Source: a virus (Duplodnaviria; Heunggongvirae; Uroviricota; Caudoviricetes). From it: a stretch of DNA of 31,670 nucleotides. This document shows, one piece after another, positions 2,335 through 13,373 of this stretch. Every line of letters begins with the position of its first letter. Position 1 is the stretch's first letter. The translations under genes were made by a program, and so were the position numbers. The DNA lies in IMG/VR virus record IMGVR_UViG_649989948_000010, positions 1-31,670 of that record. One strand, 5' to 3'. The notes beneath the pieces are model-generated. The model saw only the letters and a list, made by a program, of their open reading frames with translations, ran no database searches and was not told where the DNA came from.

Positions 2335-3897
2335 ATGAAAATGACAAGTATTCAACAACGTGCAGAGCTTCATCGTCAAATCTGGCAAATTGCTAACGAT
2401 GTCAGGGGTTCGGTCGATGGATGGGATTTTAAGCAATACGTTCTGGGCGCACTTTTCTACCGTTTTATCAGCGAAAATTTTTCCAGCTATATTGAAGCCG
2501 GTGATGACAGTATCTGTTATGCGAAACTGGATGACAGCGTAATTACTGATGACATTAAAGACGATGCCATCAAAACCAAAGGTTACTTCATCTACCCAAG
2601 TCAGCTTTTCTGCAACGTAGCTGCGAAAGCAAATACCAATGACAGACTGAATGCAGATTTAAACAGCATCTTCGTTGCTATCGAAAGTTCTGCTTACGGT
2701 TACCCTTCAGAAGCTGACATCAAAGGTTTGTTTGCTGATTTCGATACCACCAGTAACCGCCTGGGTAACACCGTTAAGGATAAAAATGCCCGCCTGGCTG
2801 CGGTTCTGAAAGGGGTTGAAGGGTTAAAGCTTGGCGACTTTAACGAACATCAGATTGACCTGTTCGGCGATGCCTATGAGTTCCTGATTTCTAACTATGC
2901 CGCGAATGCTGGTAAGTCAGGCGGCGAGTTCTTTACACCGCAGCACGTCTCTAAGCTGATTGCACAACTGGCTATGCACGGGCAGACCCACGTTAACAAA
3001 ATCTACGACCCGGCCGCAGGTTCCGGTTCGCTGTTGTTGCAGGCGAAAAAGCAGTTTGATGACCATATCATCGAAGAAGGCTTTTTTGGTCAGGAGATCA
3101 ACCATACGACCTATAACCTGGCGCGTATGAACATGTTTTTGCACAACATCAACTACGACAAGTTTGATATCAAGTTGGGCAATACGCTGACTGAGCCGCA
3201 CTTCAGAGATGAAAAACCGTTTGATGCCATCGTTTCTAACCCGCCGTATTCGGTGAAATGGATTGGCAGCGATGACCCGACGCTGATTAACGATGAACGT
3301 TTTGCCCCGGCTGGCGTTCTGGCCCCCAAATCCAAAGCTGACTTTGCGTTTGTATTACATGCGCTGAACTATCTTTCGGCCAAAGGTCGCGCTGCGATTG
3401 TCTGCTTCCCAGGCATTTTTTACCGTGGCGGCGCGGAGCAGAAAATCCGTCAGTATCTGGTCGACAATAACTATGTCGAAACCGTGATTTCACTGGCACC
3501 GAATCTGTTCTTTGGCACCACTATTGCCGTCAATATTCTGGTGCTGTCTAAACATAAAACGGATACCAAAGTTCAGTTTATTGATGCCAGCGAACTGTTC
3601 AAAAAAGAGACTAACAACAACATTCTGACCGATGCTCATATCGAACAGATTATGCAGGTATTTGCCAGCAAGGAAGATGTTGCTCATCTGGCGAAATCTG
3701 TTGCGTTTGAGACTGTTGTCGCGAATGACTATAACCTGTCGGTGAGCAGCTATGTGGAAGCGAAAGATACTCGCGAAATTATCGATATCGCTGAGCTGAA
3801 TGCTGAGCTGAAAACCACGGTCAGCAAAATCGACCAGTTGCGTAAAGATATTGATGCGATTGTTGCTGAGATTGAAGGTAGCGAGGTACAGGCATGA
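2335..3897 (+). CDS. hsdM: Type I restriction-modification methyltransferase subunit HsdM (type IC-like)
   Basis: 520 aa; N6-adenine MTase motifs ([12 protein letters not shown]); N-terminus matches the EcoR124-family HsdM as I recall it; 4-bp ATGA overlap with hsdS. Confidence 0.93.
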
Positions 3898-5141
3898 GCG
3901 AGCTGAGTTATCTGGAAAAACTGCTGGATGGGGCTGAGGTTGAGTGGGTAGCATTAAATAAATTAGCAACTTTTTTAAAAGGGAAGTCTTTACCTAAAGA
4001 AAAAATAACTCCAGATGGCAATAGATATTGTATTCATTACGGTGAGCTTTTCACTCATTATGGTCCCATAATTGACAAAGTATGCTCAAAAACAAACCAA
4101 GCAATCAATGAGTCAATTCTATCTGAAAAAAATGATGTTCTAATGCCAACGTCAGACGTTACACCAAGAGGTTTGGCTACAGCTAGTTGCATTCAAGAAA
4201 GTGGCGTTATTTTAGGCGGCGATATTTTGATTATTAGATGCTCTGGTGTTGATGGTAGATATCTAAGTAATTTCATAATAAATAACAAAAAAAAGATATT
4301 GCAAATGGTTAAAGGTTCTACTGTTTATCATTTGTATGCTAAAGATATAGGTAAATTACTTATCCCCATCCCTTGCCCCAACAACCCGGAAAAGTCGCTG
4401 GCTATCCAGTCTGAAATCGTCAGGATTCTGGATAAATTTACTGCACTTACCGCTGAGCTTACCGCTGAGCTTAGCATGCGTAAAAAACAATACAACTACT
4501 ATCGCGACCAGTTGTTGAGTTTTAAAGAGGGTGAGGTTGAGTGGAAAGCTTTGGGGGAAATTGGTGAAGTTCGTATGTGTAAACGAATCCTAAAATCACA
4601 AACATCTTCTGAGGGAGAGATTCCATTTTATAAAATTGGGACATTTGGTAAGGAACCCGATTCCTATATATCTAGAAAACTATTTAATGAATTTAAAGAA
4701 AAATATAGTTATCCTAAAGTTGGCGAAGTATTGATTTCTGCCAGTGGGACCATCGGCAGGACTGTTATATTTGATGGTAGGGAATCATATTTCCAGGATA
4801 GCAATATTGTCTGGATTGAAAATAATGAAAAAATAGTTTTAAATAAATATTTATTCTATTTCTATAAAATAGCAAAATGGGGAATATCTGAAGGTGGAAC
4901 TATTAAAAGACTTTATAATGATAACTTAAGAAAACTTATGATACCAGTACCATTTCCTGATTCTCCTGAAAGATCGCTAGTTGAACAACAAAAAATAGTG
5001 AAATTACTGGATAAATTTGATGCTTTGACCAATTCCATCACCGAAGGTCTTCCGCGTGAAATCGAGTTGCGCCAGAAACAATACGAGTACTATCGTGATT
5101 TACTGTTCAGTTTTCCCAAACCTGAAACTATCAGTAACTAA
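3894..5141 (+). CDS. hsdS: Type I restriction-modification specificity subunit HsdS
   Basis: 415 aa; conserved central ([16 protein letters not shown]) and C-terminal ([37 protein letters not shown]) regions flanking two AT-rich variable domains. Confidence 0.9.
4448..4471 (+). repeat. Tandem 12-bp repeat (TACCGCTGAGCT x2) encoding TAEL-TAEL in the HsdS central spacer
   Basis: Direct tandem duplication read in the sequence; repeat number in this spacer sets recognition-site spacing in type IC systems. Confidence 0.85.
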
Positions 5142-5262
5142 TTGACCATTGCTACCGACCGGATCACCTTAACATCCGGTCTATATAGAGACTATTTTTT
5201 ACACGCCGGAAGTCGCCCTTAAAGCCCTTCCGGCCCTTGCCAGACGGCACAAAGGATGCGCT

Positions 5263-8200
5263 ATGACTCATCAGACACACACCATTGCTGAATCCAATAA
5301 CTTTATCGTTCTTGATAAGTACATCAAAGCCGAGCAAACAGGCGACAGCTACCAGAGCGAATCGGACCTGGAACGTGAACTGATTCAGGATCTGCGGAAT
5401 CAGGGCTATGAATTTATTTCCGTAAAATCTCAGTCGGCGATGCTGGCCAACGTTCGGGAACAGCTTCAGAACCTCAATGGTGTGGTGTTTAATGACAGCG
5501 AATGGCGGCGTTTCACGGAGCAGTATCTGGATAACCCGAGCGATGGCATCCTGGATAAGACCCGTAAAATCCATATCGACTATATTTGCGACTTTATTTT
5601 TGATGACGAGCGTCTTGAGAACATCTATTTGATAGATAAAAAGAATCTCATGCGCAACAAGGTGCAGATTATCCAGCAGTTTGAACAGACGGGTTCTCAT
5701 GCTAACCGTTATGACGTCACGATCCTGGTTAATGGCTTACCGCTGGTACAAATCGAACTGAAAAAGCGCGGCGTGGCGATTCGTGAGGCCTTTAACCAGA
5801 TACATCGTTACAGCAAAGAGAGTTTTAACAGCGAAAATTCTCTGTTTAAGTATCTGCAACTGTTTGTCATTTCCAACGGCACCGATACCCGTTACTTTGC
5901 CAACACGACAAAGCGCGATAAAAACAGTTTTGACTTCACCATGAATTGGGCGAAATCAGACAACACGCTGATTAAAGACCTCAAAGACTTTACCGCCACC
6001 TTTTTCCAGAAACATACCCTGCTTAATGTCTTAGTGAACTACAGCGTATTCGATGTTAGCCAAACGCTACTGGTGATGCGACCGTACCAGATTGCCGCCA
6101 CTGAGCGCATTCTGTGGAAAATTAAGAGTTCCTTTACAGCGAAGAACTGGTCAAAACCGGAAAGCGGTGGGTATATCTGGCACACTACCGGTTCAGGTAA
6201 AACCCTCACCAGCTTTAAAGCCGCGCGTCTGGCAACAGAGCTGGACTTTATTGATAAAGTCTTCTTCGTGGTCGACAGGAAAGACCTCGATTACCAGACC
6301 ATGAATGAATATAAGCGTTTTTCGCCAGACAGCGTCAACGGCTCGGAAAATACCGCAGGTCTTAAACGCAATCTGGATAAGGACGATAACAAAATTATCG
6401 TCACCACTATTCAGAAACTTAATAACCTGATGAAAGCAGAAAGCGACCTGCCTGTATACAATCAGCAAGTGGTGTTTATATTTGATGAATGTCACCGCAG
6501 CCAGTTTGGAGAAGCGCAGAAAAACCTGAAGAAGAAATTCAAACGCTATTATCAGTTTGGTTTTACCGGCACACCTATTTTCCCGGAAAACGCCTTAGGC
6601 TCAGAAACGACCGCCAGCGTATTTGGTCGTGAATTGCATTCGTATGTAATTACCGATGCGATTCGTGATGAAAAAGTGCTCAAATTCAAGGTGGACTACA
6701 ACGATGTGCGGCCACAGTTTAAATCTTTAGAGACAGAAACCGACGAGAAAAAACTGAGTGCGGCTGAAAATCAGCAGGCATTTCTTCATCCCATGCGTAT
6801 ACAGGAAATTACGCAATATATTCTGAATAACTTCCGCCAGAAGACCCACCGTACTTTCCCAGGTTCCAAAGGCTTTAATGCCATGCTGGCAGTGAGTAGC
6901 GTGGATGCCGCGAAAGCCTATTACGCGACGTTTAAACGGTTACAAGAGGAAGCAGCTAATAAATCGGCTACCTATAAACCGCTGCGTGTTGCAACAATCT
7001 TCTCCTTTGCCGCCAATGAAGAACAAAATGCCATTGGTGAAATTTCCGATGAAACTTTTGATACCAGCGCAATGGACAGCAGTGCTAAAGAGTTTCTTGA
7101 CGCTGCAATTCGTGAGTATAACAGCTATTTTAAAACTAACTTCAGCACCGACAGTAACGGTTTTCAGAACTACTATCGTGATTTAGCCCAACGGGTTAAA
7201 AATCAGGATATCGATCTGTTAATTGTCGTTGGGATGTTTTTAACCGGCTTCGACGCTCCAACATTGAACACGCTATTCGTCGATAAAAACTTGCGTTTTC
7301 ACGGCCTGATGCAGGCATTCTCCCGTACCAACCGCATTTATGACGCTACTAAAACCTTCGGTAACATCGTCACTTTTCGGGATCTGGAACGCTCAACCAT
7401 TGATGCCATAACGCTGTTTGGTGATAAAAATACTAAAAATGTGGTGTTAGAAAAGAGTTATGCTGAGTATATGGAAGGCTTTACAGATGCTGCCACTGGT
7501 GAAGCTAAACGCGGCTTTATGGCAGTAGTTTCAGAACTGGAACAACGGTTCCCTGACCCTGCCAGTATTGAAAGTGAAAAAGAGAAGAAAGACTTCGTAA
7601 AACTGTTTGGTGAATACCTGCGTGCCGAGAACATCCTGCAAAACTATGATGAATTTGCCACGCTGAAAGCCCTGCAACAAATCGATCTTAGCGATCCTGT
7701 TGCGGTAGAAAAATTCAAAGCAGAACATTATGTGGATGATGAAAAGTTCGCTGAATTGCAAACAATTCGTCTCCCTGCTGAACGCAAGATTCAGGATTAT
7801 CGTTCTGCCTATAACGATATTCGCGACTGGCAGCGCCGTGAGAAAGAAGCTGAGAAAAAAGAGAAATCAACCACTGACTGGGATGACGTAGTTTTTGAGG
7901 TCGATTTGCTGAAGTCTCAGGAAATAAACCTGGATTATATCCTTGGACTGATTTTCGAACACAACAGACAAAATAAAGGCAAGGGCGAAATGATCGAAGA
8001 GGTCAAACGCTTAATTCGTTCAAGCCTGGGGAACCGGGCGAAAGAGGGCCTGGTGGTCGATTTTATTCAGCAAACGAACCTGGATGATTTACCAGACAAA
8101 GCCAGTATCATTGAGGCATTCTTTACGTTTGCTCAACGCGAACAGCAACGTGAAGCAGAAGCATTGATAAAAGAAGAAAATCTCAATGAAGAGGCGGCGA

Positions 8201-8379
8201 AACGCTATATTCGCACGTCTTTAAAACGCGAATACGCCACCGAAAATGGCACAGAATTAAACGAGACATTACCAAAACTTAGTCCGTTAAACCCGCAATA
8301 TAAAACGAAAAAACAGACCGTTTTCCAGAAAATCGTCACGTTTATTGAAAAGTTCAAAGGAGTAGGTGGGCAGATATAG
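5263..8379 (+). CDS. hsdR: Type I restriction endonuclease subunit HsdR (type IC-like)
   Basis: 1038 aa; SF2 helicase motifs (TGSGKT, DECHRS), type I HsdR architecture; AGGA RBS. Confidence 0.93.
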
Positions 8380-8437: not shown

Positions 8438-8914
8438 TCAAACCATCGTAGGGATGTTTGTATCCACTTTGAACTCAGGTACACCAACGAACTCTTTAAC
8501 CTTCATCTGGTAGCCGGTTCTGTCAGTTTTGATGACTTCCTGTTTGCCCTCTATAAACTGCTCACGCCACTCGTCGCGACGGGAAGCTGGCATGATCAGC
8601 AAAACGTTAGTCATATCCGTGACCTTCCTCCAGTACTCGGCCCAAATATTCTGTTTCACCCATTCCAGATCGACTTTATCCAGCCAAGCTCGATTCAAAC
8701 GTGAGCGTTCTTCATCTGGTCGATGGTTCAGTTGCAGCAGGCGATTAATCATGTTGTGGCGTTCGTCGCCATAAACGAAGTCGTGAACCTGATACATGAA
8801 GGCGATCTCTTTCTCGCACTCGGCTACGATTTCGTGGATGACGTTCATTTCCTGACGATAATCGATAGCAGTGTTTGAGTTGGTATCGTCGATGATGGAA
8901 AGAGCTGTATTCAT
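8438..8914 (-). CDS. Hypothetical protein (158 aa), first gene after hsdR, convergent with it
   Basis: ORF with ATG start; contains an R-x5-H motif (RLLQLNH) that could be HEPN-like; no family recognised. Confidence 0.45.
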   Translation of the reverse strand: MNTALSIIDDTNSNTAIDYRQEMNVIHEIVAECEKEIAFMYQVHDFVYGDERHNMINRLLQLNHRPDEERSRLNRAWLDKVDLEWVKQNIWAEYWRKVTDMTNVLLIMPASRRDEWREQFIEGKQEVIKTDRTGYQMKVKEFVGVPEFKVDTNIPTMV

Positions 8915-10655: not shown

Positions 10656-10677
10656 ACAAGGGCCATTTGGCCCTTGT
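10656..10677 (-). terminator. Stem-loop immediately after the 52-aa ORF
   Basis: 9-bp inverted repeat ACAAGGGCC/GGCCCTTGT with 4-nt loop, followed on the minus strand by GTTTCGTT. Confidence 0.4.
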
Positions 10678-10679
10678 CA

Positions 10680-10838
10680 TTAACACGTTGCTTTACGGAC
10701 TAGCGGATAAGCGAAGTAGATCGCCAGACCAATGAGGACGCCATCAGAAATGACAGACATCATCTTTCCCGTAAAATCCACCAACACCGCTATCACCAGA
10801 AGAGCAATGACGGTCACAAGCCGGAATCTCTCAAGCAT
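10680..10838 (-). CDS. Small hydrophobic protein (52 aa, two predicted TM segments), translationally coupled to the TerB-like gene
   Basis: Hand-translated: MLERFRLVTVIALLVIAVLVDFTGKMMSVISDGVLIGLAIYFAYPLVRKATC; its ATG overlaps the TerB-like TAA (TAATG); absent from the ORF track (under 60 aa). Confidence 0.35.
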   Translation of the reverse strand: MLERFRLVTVIALLVIAVLVDFTGKMMSVISDGVLIGLAIYFAYPLVRKATC

Positions 10839-11263
10839 TAGAGATAAGCATCCAGTGACAACTGAAGCGCCTGGGCGATCTTTTTCAGCGCCTGCTCTTC
10901 TGGTTCATCAATGCCGTCCTGGTCGGCAATATCAAGGCACAGACACAGTACATCTACTGCATCATCAGTCCCGGCCACATCCGCCAGCTCACGTAAAGCC
11001 TGGGCATTAGCACGGCGCGGTGAGGCTTCGTATTGAGCGCGGATATTGGCGCTCATCTGGGCAATCTCACCAGCAAAAGGAGAAAATGCAGGCAGAGCTG
11101 CAATTGTTTTCTCAAGAATGGAAATTTCTTTTGCATCGCATGTACCGTTGGCATAGGAGATCATGTACCCGCCCCACACGGTGGCTTCAACCGCATCACG
11201 GTTCTCCATTTTTTTGACTTCGATAACAGCTTTACGAGTTTTCTTTTTGAAGAAACCTAACAT
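10838..11263 (-). CDS. TerB-like domain protein (141 aa)
   Basis: Pattern resembles tellurite-resistance TerB (N-terminal MxxFF; acidic C-terminal LCLCLDIADQDGIDEPEEQALKKIAQALQLS). Confidence 0.55.
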   Translation of the reverse strand: MLGFFKKKTRKAVIEVKKMENRDAVEATVWGGYMISYANGTCDAKEISILEKTIAALPAFSPFAGEIAQMSANIRAQYEASPRRANAQALRELADVAGTDDAVDVLCLCLDIADQDGIDEPEEQALKKIAQALQLSLDAYL

Positions 11264-11356: not shown

Positions 11357-11545
11357 TCAGAAATAACCAAGTACCGAACCGACTGGAAAAATAAAAATCC
11401 CAACTACACGAGCCAAGGTCATGCCAGCCTGAAACTGGAGATCACCTGAGCAAACGAGTTTTATAATGTTGGATACCCAACCGGCGGCCATGAGAGCCAG
11501 AATTGCCAGCCAAATTTTCCCAAAGTGATTTGAAAGCCAGTTCAT
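11357..11545 (-). CDS. Small membrane protein (62 aa, two predicted TM helices)
   Basis: Hydrophobic segments IWLAILALMAAGWV and LARVVGIFIFPVGSVLGYF; ATG overlaps the TGA of the upstream 83-aa ORF (ATGA). Confidence 0.45.
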   Translation of the reverse strand: MNWLSNHFGKIWLAILALMAAGWVSNIIKLVCSGDLQFQAGMTLARVVGIFIFPVGSVLGYF

Positions 11546-11793
11546 ACAACCACCTTAGTCACAACATGATCCTGAGTAACTGGATGAACTTGAGGTATCG
11601 CATCCACCGTCATCCCATCCAGAGTGACAGGACGCTCTACTGGAGTGGTGGTAATTGTCGTCGACGGAGGTGTGGTGATGGATGAACCCGGCATCAAAAG
11701 GCTCTGGCCGGCTGGAACGGCTACCGTCGCCAGTGAAACTATAATGAGAACGTAGGCCATTGGTTTCAGCCTCTTTCTTTGAAAATTTTCCAT
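11542..11793 (-). CDS. Small bitopic membrane protein (83 aa) with Pro/Thr-rich C-terminal region
   Basis: AAGGA RBS 7 nt before ATG; basic N-terminus then a hydrophobic anchor (MAYVLIIVSLATVAVPAG); coupled to the 62-aa gene. Confidence 0.4.
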   Translation of the reverse strand: MENFQRKRLKPMAYVLIIVSLATVAVPAGQSLLMPGSSITTPPSTTITTTPVERPVTLDGMTVDAIPQVHPVTQDHVVTKVVV

Positions 11794-12049
11794 TCGAACT
11801 GTCCTTGTTGTTTTTCTCCTTCACTAAAGGCCGTGTACTTTTCGCTTCGCGTGAAGAACCAGAGGCAACAATCGCCCCCACGTTCGCAACAACTGACGCT
11901 TGATTATCTAAACGTTCATTCAGCAACCGAACGGTAGTCTCTAGTTCATCAAGACGTGACATAACACGACCGCTAAACAATTCGGCCAAAATTTGACGTA
12001 AAGAACGAGGACGTTTAGTTGCAGAAGTGAAATAGGTTTGACGTGCCAT
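11555..12049 (-). CDS. Hypothetical protein (164 aa ORF; only the first ~85 aa look protein-like)
   Basis: Good GGAG RBS and ATG at 12049; downstream half overlaps the 83-aa ORF in another frame and is low-complexity S/H/C-rich; true 3' end uncertain. Confidence 0.3.
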   Translation of the reverse strand: MARQTYFTSATKRPRSLRQILAELFSGRVMSRLDELETTVRLLNERLDNQASVVANVGAIVASGSSREAKSTRPLVKEKNNKDSSNGKFSKKEAETNGLRSHYSFTGDGSRSSRPEPFDAGFIHHHTSVDDNYHHSSRASCHSGWDDGGCDTSSSSSYSGSCCD

Positions 12050-12078
12050 GTGGACTCCATCCAGTGTCAGAAAGAGTT

Positions 12079-12100
12079 GCGGCTGGCGATCGCCAGCCGC
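12079..12100. terminator. Perfect 22-bp palindrome GCGGCTGGCGATCGCCAGCCGC between RNase H and the next gene
   Basis: Perfect inverted repeat; flanked by T/C-rich sequence on both strands. Confidence 0.4.
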
Positions 12101-12197
12101 CTTTCTCGTTCCATCCTGGAACTGTGTCTTACCGACACATTGTCATCCTGACGCTGATAAGATACATGATTTAAAATGATAGGTAAACACTTACTTA

Positions 12198-12788
12198 CTA
12201 CTTGTTATAAACAAAACCAATATCTTTCTTGTGAGGCATATCTGCTGCTGAAAAAGCTGCGATCTTCGCGAGTCGATCACATATTTCATTTTCACGATGC
12301 CCGGCGTGACCTTTAACCCACTTCCAGCGAACATTATGTCGACTTGCGGCCTCATCCAGACGCTTCCACAGATCAACATTCTTTACCGGTTTTTTGTCAG
12401 AAGTCATCCATCCATTGCGTTTCCACCATTTCATCCACTGTGTCATGCCGTTTTTCAGATACTGGCTATCAGAGTACAAAATAACGTTGCATGGATATTT
12501 CAAACGCTCCAGCCCGATAAGTGCCCCCATCATCTCCATGCGGTTATTGGTGGTGCTATGAAAACCATCTGAGAACTCGCGTTCCTCACCACCATACTGG
12601 AGAACTATACCGTAACCGCCCGGGCCACCCGGATTTTTAAGGCAAGAGCCATCACTGAAGATTTTCACGGTTTTAAGCTGGGGATTGAACTCTACGACAG
12701 GCGTTGTGGAATTGGTGCGGGGAGAATTTTTGTTTTTGTCATTTTTGCGAGTTTTTGCTTGCGATCGGGCTGGTGTCTTCGTCGTCAT
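12198..12788 (-). CDS. rnhA: Ribonuclease HI
   Basis: Strong match to E. coli RnhA motifs (FTDGSC, TNNRMEL-like, [21 protein letters not shown]); start placed at internal MTTKT with AGGAG RBS rather than the longer ORF-track start at 12875. Confidence 0.85.
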
Positions 12789-13373
12789 ATAAACTCCTGA
12801 ATCAAGCGCCGCGCCGATTTTTTTTCCTCGCGCGTGCGCACACGCGTGCGTGTTAATAATTATTAAAATAAACAAATTACTTCCCAGAACAGGTTTTTAT
12901 AAACCTGAACTGAACGAACGAAGTGAGTGAAGTTCACCTCGAACGAAGTGAGAGGTTGTCTTTTCAGGTAATACTCTCCCAGGGAGGTGAGTACAAAATT
13001 TCCTCACCAACCTGGTCGTTTCATAACCTGAAAAGTTATGACCTAAGTCTACTGCCAGCTTAGGCTTGGGAAGTTATGGATGACAGCACCCCAGAACCGA
13101 GATCTTCCCACACTTTATGAAGGGGAGTACTGGATTCAACCTCTCGAAACACCCCAGACTCGACAATCATAAAGTGACCCTTGTCTCTGCTCACTTTGGT
13201 TCCCCCTTCCCCAACCCCTAAACGGTGCCGGTTCTACGCTGGTAGTGAGCTTTTTTAAACCTGACGCCAGTGACGCTTACCCCCACCCATCAGGTCGAGC
13301 CTCCAATCTACGACTGGAAACTATCAGATCTTAGCACTTACAATTCACTTTATGAATAGTTTGTACTTATCTA

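What the first reader, a model, noticed from the sequence alone, without database searches (positions are those of the whole stretch)
11357..12049. Coupled pair of small membrane proteins overlapped by a longer ORF
An 83-aa signal-anchor protein with a Pro/Thr-rich tail and a 62-aa two-TM protein are coupled through an ATGA overlap and have a good RBS. The 164-aa ORF from 12049 has a convincing RBS and N-terminus, but its second half overlaps the 83-aa gene in another frame and is S/H/C-rich low-complexity. Either the 164-aa gene ends early (frameshift or sequencing error) or this is a genuine overlapping-gene arrangement. Small coupled membrane proteins in phage early regions often mediate exclusion or lysis control.
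Basis: seen in the sequence. Interest (0 to 1): 0.5.

Follow-up and report, generated by a model that had tools for sequence, protein, structure and literature searches.

The report
Two genes sharing one DNA stretch
In a common family of phage-plasmids of gut bacteria, about 240 bases are read in two different frames to make two proteins, one of which standard annotation misses, and a small membrane protein follows; what the three proteins do is not known.

Summary
On the minus strand lie A (164 aa, 12049-11555), B (83 aa, 11793-11542, +1 frame inside A) and C (62 aa, 11545-11357). B's stop overlaps C's start (ATGA).

The window is an SSU5/pHCM2-like phage-plasmid. Annotators call only A and C.

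In seven lineages (38-100% protein identity) both frames stay intact, and B always ends 13 nt after A.

Evidence that B is translated:
- Codon-position variability flips to B's frame inside the overlap.
- dNN/dNS = 0.50 (CI 0.36-0.68).
- A's silent third bases are frozen in 7/10 invariant columns, against 1/33 in flanking genes.
- B's ATG and a Shine-Dalgarno-like element upstream are kept in every lineage.

Evidence that A's tail is also maintained, more weakly:
- The frame stays open (chance 0.02-0.15 per lineage).
- The stop position is fixed (TAA or TGA).
- B-silent sites evolve at 0.55x the flanking rate.
- The C.SGW[DN]...CD motif survives in distant relatives.

So this is a genuine overlapping-gene arrangement, not a frameshift or a sequencing error.

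A is a long helix plus a disordered Cys/His/Ser tail. B has a signal-like N-terminus and a Pro/Thr tail. C has two membrane helices. Function is unknown and probably concerns the envelope.

A conserved, structured leader with three GGA-loop hairpins (CsrA-type) precedes A.

The parts
11555..12049 (-). Gene A (164 aa). Residues 1-85 are not overlapped and contain a basic motif (KRPRSLR) followed by a long helix (residues 17-69). Residues 86-164 are a Ser/His/Cys/Gly/Asp-rich tail predicted to be disordered, read from the same DNA as B.
   Evidence: ORF. Annotated as a hypothetical protein in RefSeq, Cyrano, PhiR41_1 and SSU5. Matches phrog_10411 at E=5e-78. AlphaFold2: helices 17-25 and 28-69 with pLDDT up to 92, rest below 50. 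The non-overlapped part shows an ordinary coding pattern (dN/dS 0.29).
11542..11793 (-). Gene B (83 aa), in the +1 frame of A and not annotated in RefSeq. It has a positively charged N-terminus (MENFQRKRLKP), a 15-residue hydrophobic segment followed by VPAGQ (signal peptide or signal anchor), then a Pro/Thr-rich tail with the conserved motif LDGMxxDxIP.
   Evidence: ORF. Matches phrog_15659 at E=7e-48. Intact in 7 lineages. Purifying selection: dNN/dNS 0.50, CI 0.36-0.68. A-frame silent sites frozen in 7/10 columns against 1/33 in flanks, P=3e-5. Hydropathy. AlphaFold2: helix 3-24 then disorder, low confidence.
11357..11545 (-). Gene C (62 aa), a protein with two hydrophobic helices. Its start codon overlaps B's stop (ATGA).
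   Evidence: ORF. Matches phrog_6006 at E=2e-25. Two hydrophobic segments. Ordinary coding pattern (pairwise differences 0.31/0.21/0.52 by codon position; dN/dS 0.20). Present with the ATGA or GTGA overlap in 6 of 7 lineages, absent in L079.
11555..11793 (-). The dual-coding stretch (239 nt): 79 codons of A plus its stop codon and 79 codons of B. A codon position 1 is B position 3, A position 2 is B position 1, and A position 3 is B position 2.
   Evidence: The codon-position variability pattern flips here. Both classes of 'silent' site are slowed relative to flanking dS. Codon-usage log-odds per codon: B +0.14, A +0.03, third frame -0.88. It is the only part of the locus still found by blastn in SSU5 (query 242-513).
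11802..11806 (-). Shine-Dalgarno-like AAGGA, 8 nt upstream of B's ATG and inside A's coding sequence.
   Evidence: Sequence. An SD-like element is kept upstream of B's ATG in every lineage although its sequence differs: AAGGA in the E. coli, SSU5 and L007 types, GGAG in Klebsiella, AGGGA in the Cronobacter type.
11550..11556 (-). Shine-Dalgarno AAGGTGG for C. It overlaps A's stop codon and B's last codons.
   Evidence: Sequence. The other lineages have GAGG or GAAGG at the same place.
12159..12187 (-). Promoter-like element TTTACC-17 nt-TATCTT, starting 11 nt after the rnhA stop.
   Evidence: Conserved in all lineages. It falls below the threshold of the consensus scan, so this is an inference. 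RNA-seq in LF82 shows CYRAN_83-86 changing together, independently of rnhA.
12051..12153 (-). Structured 5' leader of gene A with five hairpins: hp1 CGUCA-GGA-UGACA (12153-12141); hp2, which covaries (12138-12124); hp3 GUUCCA-GGA-UGGAAC (12122-12108); hp4, a GC-rich 9-bp terminator-like stem (12100-12079); hp5 UGGAU-GGA-GUCCA (12063-12051), whose loop is A's Shine-Dalgarno sequence.
   Evidence: MFE -46.9 kcal/mol, z = -5.5. RNAalifold finds 9 pairs with compensatory changes. In the explicit count, hp2 is 100% paired with 4 of 5 pairs covarying, hp5 has 2 covarying pairs, and hp1 and hp3 are near-invariant. Terminator-like call for hp4. Weak Rfam CsrB hit, E=0.067. CAGGAUG matches the CsrB repeat CAGGA(U/A/C)G (PMC7652899).
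10656..10677 (-). Terminator-like hairpin directly after tciB. It is the probable end of the transcription unit leader-A/B-C-tciA-tciB.
   Evidence: 9-bp stem, 6 G-C pairs, T-rich tail. The ORFs tciA 11263-10838 and tciB 10838-10680 lie between C and this hairpin.

Best explanation
This is a genuine, conserved dual-coding locus in the early or accessory region of SSU5/pHCM2-like phage-plasmids.

How it is expressed. One mRNA probably starts at a conserved promoter-like element just after rnhA, carries a structured leader, and runs through A, B, C, tciA and tciB. It yields three products from window 12049-11357:
(1) Ribosomes starting at 12049 make A. A is a cytoplasmic protein with a long helix (probably a coiled coil) and a disordered Cys/His/Ser-rich tail.
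(2) Other ribosomes start independently at an internal Shine-Dalgarno sequence and ATG (11793) in the +1 frame and make B. B is a small protein with a signal-peptide-like or signal-anchor N-terminus and a Pro/Thr-rich tail, so it is directed to the inner membrane or periplasm.
(3) Ribosomes finishing B at TGA restart on the overlapping ATG (ATGA) to make C, a two-helix membrane mini-protein. B and C are therefore made in a fixed ratio.

Evolution. B is the more strongly constrained reading of the shared DNA. A's tail is kept open and weakly constrained. The most likely history is that A was extended across an existing B gene.

What is shown: the conservation of both frames, the selection signatures, the start and stop geometry, and the predicted topology and disorder.

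What is inferred: actual translation, export of B, B-C coupling, the single transcription unit, and the function. My best guess for function (about 35%) is an envelope-directed activity such as exclusion or protection of the cell surface, made together with the neighbouring TerB/TciA-TciB proteins. The three GGA-loop hairpins of the leader, one of which is A's Shine-Dalgarno sequence, suggest translational repression by host CsrA (about 50%).

The confidence given (0.72) is for the dual-coding claim itself, that is, that both frames are translated and maintained. It does not cover the functional guess.
For: Distribution. The same arrangement occurs in about 75 loci of 7 lineages from E. coli, Salmonella (SSU5, pHCM2), Citrobacter, Kluyvera, Buttiauxella, Cronobacter-type, Klebsiella and two more distant lineages. 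B's stop is always 13 nt after A's stop.

B is coding.
- Pairwise differences by A codon position are 0.28/0.20/0.43 upstream of the overlap but 0.29/0.24/0.19 inside it. That is B position 3 > position 1 > position 2.
- dNN/dNS = 0.55 across all sequences and 0.50 across 7 lineages. No bootstrap replicate reached 1 with all sequences, and the 95% CI for the 7 lineages is 0.36-0.68.
- At residues of A that are invariant, the silent third base is frozen in 7/10 columns, against 1/33 in flanking genes (P=3e-5).
- B's ATG is fixed while the overlapping A codon varies only as NAT (Asn, His, Asp or Tyr).
- An SD-like element is kept in every lineage.
- The ATGA or GTGA junction with C is kept.
- Met12 is absent in L079, so Met1 is the conserved start.

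A's tail is maintained.
- Given B's protein, synonymous recoding leaves frame A open in only 2-15% of trials per lineage. The product over 7 lineages is 3e-9.
- T is B's commonest third base (28-37%) but never occurs where it would create a stop in A. The one exception is the fixed site that forms A's own stop, ACT|AAG or ACT|GAG, giving TAA or TGA.
- B-silent sites evolve at 0.55x the flanking synonymous rate (CI 0.36-0.79).
- The motif C.SGW[DN]..G...CD persists in the distant relatives P0047 and P0054.

Both frames score as coding-like by codon usage, and the third frame does not.

Structure and topology. Leader. Co-variation of CYRAN_83-86 transcripts, independent of rnhA.
Against: - There is no direct evidence of translation for either frame. 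No Ribo-seq or proteomics was available.
- The conditional test for frame A is not significant (dNN/dSN 0.92-1.05).
- The frozen-third-base test for A's tail is only a trend (3/14 against 1/33, P=0.07).
- A's tail is predicted to be disordered with low confidence, so it could be a tolerated read-on and not a functional domain.
- Given A's protein, frame B stays open by chance in 22-70% of recodings in five of the seven lineages. B's openness alone therefore proves little.
- The seven lineages share ancestry, so products of probabilities overstate significance.
- Alignment in the low-complexity middle of the overlap is uncertain.
- No family, fold or defence-system match gives a function.
- Two of about 75 loci carry frameshifts that fuse the N-terminus of A to the C-terminus of B.
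- The promoter assignment is below the scan threshold.
Confidence: 0.72

Rival explanations
1. Only B and C (and a short A) matter. A's real functional unit is its N-terminal helix of about 85 aa. The 79-codon tail is a tolerated read-through across gene B that has no function of its own.
For: Conditional dN/dS for frame A in the overlap is about 1. The tail is low-complexity and predicted to be disordered. Codon-usage score is lower for A's tail (+0.03) than for B (+0.14). The frozen-third-base test gives P=0.07 only.
Against: Frame A stays open to exactly the same stop position in all seven lineages, although recoding predicts stops in 85-98% of cases per lineage. T-ending codons are avoided at every at-risk site. 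B-silent sites are slowed to 0.55x the flanking rate. The Cys/Trp motif and the C-terminal CD survive in relatives whose N-terminal profile match is only E=5e-12.
Confidence: 0.17
2. Only A and C are genes, as in RefSeq and the phage records. The 83-aa ORF is an accidental open frame produced by A's amino-acid composition.
For: All annotators omit B. Given A's protein sequence, the +1 frame stays open by chance in 37-70% of recodings in four of the first five lineages tested.
Against: Variability inside the overlap follows B's codon phase, not A's. dNN/dNS is 0.50, significantly below 1. A's silent sites are frozen in 7/10 columns against 1/33 in flanks. B's ATG, an SD-like element, the hydrophobic N-terminus and the stop/start overlap with C are conserved in all lineages. 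In L079 and Klebsiella the chance of B being open is only 0.005 and 0.066. B has its own PHROG family.
Confidence: 0.04
3. The two frames are joined by programmed ribosomal frameshifting. The functional product is then a fusion of A's N-terminal part with B's C-terminal part, as seen in several database proteins.
For: Fusion proteins of this kind exist in databases in several lineages: P0028-P0030, P0033 and P0049, and loci L056 and L077.
Against: The fusions arise from different DNA lesions at different places: loss of a T in a TTTT run in the E. coli type, a 1-nt deletion in L056 and a 2-nt insertion in L077. They are therefore mutations or assembly errors, not a recoding site. No slippery motif is conserved: CCTTTTG is present in the E. 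coli and L007 types but not in SSU5. B has its own conserved SD, ATG and N-terminal export signal, which would be pointless inside a fusion. Opposite-direction frameshift products also occur (P0026, P0045, P0051).
Confidence: 0.02
4. The A/B pair is a divergent two-component spanin (Rz/Rz1-like) and C is a holin-like protein, so the module is a lysis cassette.
For: The genetic architecture is the same as overlapped spanin genes: a small Pro-rich exported protein encoded in the +1 frame inside, and extending beyond, a coiled-coil protein gene. C has two transmembrane helices and is of pinholin size.
Against: A has no transmembrane segment (maximum hydropathy 1.45). B has no lipobox cysteine; there is none at all in the E. 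coli, SSU5 and L007 types. C lacks a charged C-terminal tail. There are no PHROG or Pfam hits to spanins or holins even at E<1. The neighbours are rnhA, tciA/tciB or an antirepressor, not an endolysin.
Confidence: 0.03

Closest known systems
Rz/Rz1 and P2 LysB/LysC two-component spanin genes of tailed phages (embedded or overlapped architecture; from established knowledge)
   Same: Both are same-strand, out-of-frame (+1) overlaps in a dsDNA phage. In both, a small proline-rich exported protein is encoded inside the 3' half of a gene for a protein with a long helix or coiled coil. As in the 'overlapped' spanin class, the inner gene runs slightly past the outer one (13 nt here).
   Different: A has no N-terminal membrane anchor and B has no lipoprotein signal. 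There is no sequence similarity to spanin families. The locus lies in the DNA-metabolism or accessory region, not in a lysis cassette. A third, translationally coupled membrane protein follows.
phiX174 gene E inside gene D, and other overprinted viral genes (review PMC8227390)
   Same: A short membrane-targeted protein with an N-terminal hydrophobic helix and an unstructured remainder is read in the +1 frame of another gene. One reading of the shared DNA is much less constrained and disordered, which is typical of overprinted pairs.
   Different: The genome is a ~110 kb dsDNA phage-plasmid, where compression is not an obvious driver. Here the more constrained frame is the short membrane protein, and the less constrained one is the tail of the longer protein. 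That suggests extension of A over B, not birth of B inside A. Nothing indicates a lysis function.
CsrA-repressed mRNA leaders such as glgC, and the ColE7 cel lysis gene (PMC7652899; PMC2896534)
   Same: Several GGA motifs are presented in hairpin loops. Two are exact CsrB-type repeats (CAGGAUG) and one coincides with the Shine-Dalgarno sequence. The GGA of hp3 and the GGA at the SD are about 58 nt apart, inside the 10-63 nt range a CsrA dimer can bridge. ColE7 cel is a precedent for CsrA control of an extrachromosomal element.
   Different: Binding was not tested. The stems are 5-6 bp, longer than most SELEX hairpins (four or fewer). A GC-rich terminator-like stem lies between the sites, which glgC lacks. 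The Rfam CsrB match is far below threshold (16.8 against 71 bits).
P1 tciA/tciB (TerB-family and DUF3927) accessory genes
   Same: These are the immediate downstream neighbours on the same strand in the E. coli and Klebsiella lineages; L079 has at least the TerB-family gene. In LF82 RNA-seq they rise and fall together with A and C.
   Different: They are not homologous to A, B or C. In SSU5, pHCM2 and some E. coli elements they are replaced by an Ant/Rha antirepressor gene, so they are not an obligatory part of the module.

Membership tests
Two-component spanin (Rz/Rz1 type) | The o-spanin gene lies in the +1 frame, embedded in or overlapping the i-spanin gene. | tested here: met
   B is in the +1 frame of A, starts at A codon 86 and ends 13 nt after A's stop.
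Two-component spanin (Rz/Rz1 type) | The i-spanin has an N-terminal transmembrane domain. | tested here: not met
   A has no hydrophobic segment. The maximum Kyte-Doolittle 15-residue mean is 1.45, at residue 51. AlphaFold2 shows a soluble helix.
Two-component spanin (Rz/Rz1 type) | The o-spanin is a lipoprotein with a lipobox cysteine. | tested here: not met
   B has no cysteine in the E. coli, SSU5 or L007 types. The Klebsiella cysteine (LITIC) has Ile at position -1, which does not fit a lipobox.
Two-component spanin (Rz/Rz1 type) | Located in a lysis cassette with holin and endolysin genes. | tested here: not met
   Neighbours are rnhA upstream and tciA/tciB, Ant/Rha or a hypothetical gene downstream, in all lineages inspected.
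Holin (class II / pinholin-like), for protein C | A small protein with two transmembrane domains and a charged hydrophilic C-terminal tail, with similarity to a holin family. | tested here: not met
   Two hydrophobic segments are present. However, the protein ends ...VLGYF with no charged tail, and there is no holin hit in Pfam or PHROGs even at E<1.
Overlapping (overprinted) protein-coding gene pair | Both reading frames are kept open across diverged homologues beyond chance expectation. | tested here: met
   Seven lineages are intact. P(A open | B protein) is 0.02-0.15 per lineage. P(B open | A protein) is 0.005 and 0.066 in the two most informative lineages. The third frame is closed.
Overlapping (overprinted) protein-coding gene pair | Purifying selection is detectable in each frame. 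| tested here: inconclusive
   Clearly met for B: dNN/dNS 0.50, CI 0.36-0.68, and 7/10 against 1/33 frozen sites. Mixed for A's tail: dNN/dSN 0.92 is not significant, B-silent sites are slowed to 0.55x the flank rate (CI 0.36-0.79), and frozen sites are 3/14 (P=0.07).
Overlapping (overprinted) protein-coding gene pair | Both products are actually translated. | not testable with these tools
   No ribosome-profiling or proteomic data were available. RNA-seq shows only low-level transcription of the region in LF82.
CsrA/RsmA-regulated leader | Two or more GGA motifs, preferably in hairpin loops, one overlapping the Shine-Dalgarno sequence, spaced 10-63 nt apart. | tested here: met
   The loops of hp1, hp3 and hp5 are GGA. 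hp1 and hp3 read CAGGAUG. The hp5 loop is the SD. The GGAs of hp1 and hp3 are about 31 nt apart, and those of hp3 and hp5 about 58 nt apart. Consensus from PMC7652899.
CsrA/RsmA-regulated leader | CsrA binds the leader and changes translation or stability. | not testable with these tools
   This requires gel shift, toeprinting, or reporter assays in a csrA mutant.
Known anti-phage defence systems (PADLOC) | Match to a defence-system protein model. | tested here: not met
   No hit for A, B or C at E<1.

The most novel reading that the evidence does not exclude
A and B are two halves of one previously unrecognised phage-plasmid system. A cytoplasmic coiled-coil protein with a Cys/His metal- or redox-binding tail and an exported Pro/Thr-rich peptide (with its membrane partner C) are locked together in the same 239 nt, so that recombination cannot separate them. 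The whole unit is gated by host CsrA through a dedicated three-hairpin leader. That would tie expression of a phage envelope function to the host's growth state.
Probability: 0.15. Interest if true: 0.65.

Novelty: new member of a known kind. Interest (0 to 1): 0.45.

Why it matters
SSU5/pHCM2-like phage-plasmids are common. This locus is found in 211 of 5,426 complete E. coli genomes and in hundreds of Klebsiella, Salmonella (including S. Typhi pHCM2), Enterobacter and Citrobacter plasmids.

Current annotation misses a conserved, probably exported protein. Gene callers forbid long same-strand overlaps, so B is absent from RefSeq records.

Outside the spanins, this is a clean and statistically supported example of a long out-of-frame overlap in a large dsDNA phage, where genome compression is not an obvious explanation. 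It is therefore a useful case for studying how overlaps arise (probably by extension of A over B) and why they persist.

The leader in front of it is a candidate new cis-regulatory RNA, and possibly a link between host CsrA and phage-plasmid gene expression.

The precise, mutually silent knock-out mutations given in the next steps make the hypothesis directly testable.

Tried and rejected
- Family searches (Pfam, NCBIfam, PADLOC, PDB sequence search) gave nothing meaningful for A, B or C. PHROGs gave three families of unknown function.
- Large protein searches showed that all three families are confined to SSU5-like elements.
- A profile of A's N-terminal domain, run against 1.8 billion representatives, found no relative with a short A or a separate B. 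The ancestral state could not be observed.
- AlphaFold2 of A and B gave one helix each plus low-confidence disorder. I did not run fold searches, because single helices give meaningless matches.
- Rfam found no family above threshold.
- The leader hairpins do not recur elsewhere in the window.
- The metagenome scan with the 15-16-nt leader hairpin was a poor use of that scan. About 116 of 120 hits were chance matches, and the four genuine ones added no new lineage.
- Literature searches for the accession numbers and locus tags found nothing.
- Rejected ideas: sequencing error or frameshift in A; programmed frameshifting; a spanin or holin cassette; B starting at Met12 as in the PHROG profile (Met12 is absent in L079, while Met1 and an upstream SD-like element are conserved).
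Full report
**What is there.** The window matches ~110 kb SSU5/pHCM2-like phage-plasmids. It is 100% identical over the locus to several complete E. coli plasmids, for example NZ_CP010153 plasmid A. It is 96.5-97% identical to Escherichia phages Cyrano, PhiR41_1 and CMS-2020a. The locus occurs in 211 of 5,426 complete E. coli genomes. In distant mode it is also found in Klebsiella, Enterobacter, Salmonella, Citrobacter and Cronobacter plasmids.

- A: 12049-11555, 164 aa.
- B: 11793-11542, 83 aa, in the +1 frame of A.
- C: 11545-11357, 62 aa.

B's TGA overlaps C's ATG (ATGA). A's TAA lies 10 nt upstream of C's ATG. Each start has a Shine-Dalgarno-like element. RefSeq, Cyrano, PhiR41_1 and SSU5 annotate A and C but never B. 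PHROGs nevertheless holds a family for each of the three (phrog_10411, phrog_15659, phrog_6006), all of unknown function.

**Conservation of the arrangement.** I collected about 80 homologous loci from plasmid, phage, genome, viral-contig and assembly collections. They fall into seven lineages whose A proteins are 38-100% identical to the window's:
- the E. coli type;
- SSU5/pHCM2, also found in Citrobacter, Kluyvera and Buttiauxella;
- a second E. coli type (L007);
- a Cronobacter-type lineage (L058);
- Klebsiella (L008);
- two further lineages (L081 and L079).

In every lineage both frames are intact. A is 146-179 aa and B is 81-92 aa. B begins with ATG preceded by an SD-like element. B's stop lies exactly 13 nt after A's stop. 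C follows, with its start overlapping B's stop (ATGA, or GTGA in Klebsiella), in six of the seven lineages. It is absent in L079 and disrupted in L114. A and B are therefore the conserved core.

Only 2 of about 75 loci have frameshifts: a 1-nt deletion in L056 and a 2-nt insertion in L077. These, like several odd database proteins, fuse the N-terminus of A to the C-terminus of B. The lesions are different and lie at different places, so they are mutations or assembly errors and not a recoding signal.

**Is frame B translated? Comparative evidence.**
- Upstream of the overlap, A shows the usual coding pattern. Mean pairwise differences at codon positions 1, 2 and 3 are 0.28, 0.20 and 0.43.
- Inside the overlap the values are 0.29, 0.24 and 0.19. 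A's third position becomes the least variable, and the ranking is that of frame B (B position 3 > 1 > 2).
- I applied an OLGenie-style classification of sites by their effect in both frames. It gives dNN/dNS = 0.55 for B over 48 distinct sequences, and 0.50 (bootstrap CI 0.36-0.68) over one sequence per lineage with a B-guided alignment.
- At residues of A that are invariant across the seven lineages, the 'silent' third base is frozen in 7 of 10 columns. The same statistic is 1 of 33 in non-overlapped A plus C (Fisher P = 3e-5).
- The A codon that covers B's ATG varies only as NAT (Asn, His, Asp or Tyr), so the constraint there belongs to B's start codon.
- Met12, where the PHROG profile begins, is missing in L079, so Met1 is the conserved start.

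Openness of frame B is weak evidence in most lineages. Synonymous recoding of A leaves B open in 22-70% of trials there. The chance is only 0.066 in Klebsiella and 0.005 in L079.

**Is A's tail real?** The conditional test is silent (dNN/dSN 0.92-1.05). Other evidence says the frame is maintained:
- Given B's protein, recoding leaves frame A open in only 2-15% of trials per lineage. Flanking synonymous sites are near saturation between lineages (dS about 1.2-2), so these trials are close to independent.
- T is B's most frequent third base (28-37%). It never occurs at the ~11 positions per lineage where it would create a stop in A.
- The sole exception is the fixed ACT|AAG or ACT|GAG, which is A's own stop. 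There B's Lys-to-Glu change turns TAA into TGA.
- B-silent sites evolve at 0.55x the flanking synonymous rate (CI 0.36-0.79). A-silent sites evolve at 0.30x. Every pair of lineages shows this slowing, so it is not a local recombination artefact.
- The distant relatives P0047 and P0054 still carry C.SGW[DN]..G and the C-terminal CD.
- The frozen-third-base test for B's silent sites is only a trend (3/14, P = 0.07).

Codon usage agrees with two coding frames. Log-odds per codon are +0.14 for B, +0.03 for A's tail and -0.88 for the third frame. Genuine off-frames of this genome average -0.55 and -0.81.

My reading is that B is certainly under protein-level selection. A's tail is translated and kept open, but only a few of its positions are constrained. 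B looks like the older reading, because it has better codon usage and stronger constraint, and A was probably extended over it. That history is an inference. No relative with a short A was found among 1.8 billion representative proteins.

**The proteins.**
- A: AlphaFold2 predicts a confident helix at residues 17-69 after a basic motif (KRPRSLR). Everything from residue 70 on is low-confidence and looks disordered. A has no hydrophobic segment. The tail has 3-4 Cys, several His, and an invariant Trp.
- B: a basic N-terminus, a 15-residue hydrophobic stretch, then Pro-Ala-Gly. It is either a Sec signal peptide (a plausible cleavage site is VPA|GQ, by my reading of the -3/-1 rule, which I did not run through a predictor) or a signal anchor. 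A Pro/Thr-rich tail follows, with the conserved block LDGMxxDxIP.
- C: two hydrophobic helices joined by a conserved GDL...G.T.AR loop, with no charged tail.

None of the three matches Pfam, NCBIfam, PADLOC or PDB sequences. All three families are confined to these phage-plasmids.

**Comparison with known systems.** The genetic architecture is that of overlapped two-component spanin genes. Membership fails on three defining features: A has no membrane anchor, B has no lipobox, and there is no lysis-cassette context. C fails the holin tests. The locus is best filed as a new member of the class of out-of-frame overlapping (overprinted) phage genes, to which phiX174 D/E also belongs.

**Expression context.** The ~140 nt between rnhA's stop and A's ATG are among the most conserved DNA of the region. 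They contain:
- a promoter-like TTTACC-17-TATCTT (12187-12159);
- hp1, CGUCA-GGA-UGACA;
- hp2, paired in 100% of cells with compensatory changes at 4 of 5 pairs;
- hp3, GUUCCA-GGA-UGGAAC, invariant;
- hp4, a GC-rich 9-bp terminator-like stem, with a compensatory change in L079;
- hp5, UGGAU-GGA-GUCCA, whose loop is A's SD and which has two covarying pairs.

The RNA folds at -46.9 kcal/mol, z = -5.5. CAGGAUG in a hairpin loop is the repeat unit of CsrB. A GGA at the SD, plus upstream GGA hairpins within the 10-63 nt bridging range, is the classic layout of CsrA-repressed leaders (PMC7652899). CsrA control of a plasmid-borne lysis gene is known for ColE7 (PMC2896534). The Rfam CsrB match is weak and binding is untested.

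In published LF82 RNA-seq, CYRAN_83 (A), 84 (C), 85 (tciA) and 86 (tciB) are near background in overnight LB. They rise together about 5-6-fold 1 h after transfer to fresh medium, while rnhA changes less than 2-fold. A terminator-like hairpin follows tciB (10677-10656). This fits a single unit, leader-A/B-C-tciA-tciB. In the SSU5, pHCM2, L007 and L081 types tciA/tciB are not there: an antirepressor gene takes their place in SSU5, pHCM2 and L007, and a hypothetical gene in L081.

**Function.** Nothing identifies it. The design is one cytoplasmic protein, one exported protein and one membrane protein made from one message. Membrane-associated TerB/TciB neighbours are co-transcribed in some lineages, and expression is low in the lysogen. 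This points to an envelope-directed activity during growth resumption or lytic development. I rank the options as follows:
- exclusion or envelope protection, about 35%;
- other host take-over, such as effects on division or membrane potential, about 25%;
- lysis timing, about 10%;
- something else for the remainder.

**Verdict.** The 'error' reading is rejected and the 'genuine overlap' reading is supported, with B as the more firmly established hidden gene. The finding is a new member of a known kind, of moderate interest. A well-defined set of mutually silent mutations is available to test it.

Noticed in passing
window 12051-12187 (minus strand): A highly conserved, structured leader lies between rnhA and gene A. 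It has a promoter-like TTTACC-17-TATCTT, three hairpins with GGA triloops (two reading CAGGAUG, like CsrB repeats, and one being A's Shine-Dalgarno sequence), a strongly covarying hairpin and a GC-rich terminator-like stem. It is a candidate CsrA-regulated or otherwise new cis-regulatory RNA.
   Followed up: yes
window 10656-10677 (minus strand): A terminator-like hairpin (9-bp stem, T-rich tail) lies immediately after tciB. It probably ends the transcription unit that begins at the leader.
   Followed up: partly
window 10680-11263 (minus strand): The TerB-family gene (tciA-like, 141 aa) and the DUF3927 gene (tciB-like, 52 aa) overlap by one base. In LF82 RNA-seq they change together with A and C. 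In SSU5, pHCM2 and some E. coli elements an Ant/Rha antirepressor gene takes their place.
   Followed up: partly
window 12198-12875 (minus strand): The rnhA (RNase HI) gene is flagged as a frameshifted pseudogene in the identical RefSeq plasmid NZ_CP010153, but is called intact (198-203 aa) in Cyrano, PhiR41_1 and pHCM2. In the window, the longest ORF starts at a TTG and is 225 aa.
   Followed up: no
L066 (IMG/VR contig, locus coordinates 2501-3008): This is a mosaic allele. The N-terminal two-thirds of A, and B's first ~35 residues, are of the L007 type. The rest is of the E. coli type. A recombination junction therefore lies inside the dual-coding stretch and preserves both frames. P0024, P0027 and P0031 are similar mosaics.
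   Followed up: partly
L056 and L077; proteins P0028-P0030, P0033, P0046, P0049, P0050: Independent frameshift alleles in several lineages fuse the N-terminus of A to B's reading frame. Some occur in complete ~110 kb elements. They may mark decaying, plasmid-locked copies, or they may be assembly errors at homopolymers.
   Followed up: partly
window 2335-8379 (plus strand) and 8438-8914 (minus strand): A type I restriction-modification cluster is inserted next to a truncated DUF4942-family gene. HsdR is the 1038-aa ORF at 5263-8379, with ORFs of 520 and 415 aa upstream. In relatives without the insertion, the DUF4942 gene is full-length.
   Followed up: no
Cyrano CYRAN_81 (locus L002 2109-2243); equivalent position in the window about 13.0-13.3 kb (estimated, not checked), upstream of rnhA: A 44-aa ORF upstream of rnhA is one of the most highly transcribed genes of the Cyrano prophage in lysogeny. 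Its normalised count is 117, against about 8 for its neighbours.
   Followed up: no
L079 (Logan ERR3437177 contig) 808-1315, and L114: Gene C is absent in the most divergent lineage (L079) and disrupted after five codons in L114, while A and B remain intact. C is therefore dispensable for the A/B pair.
   Followed up: partly
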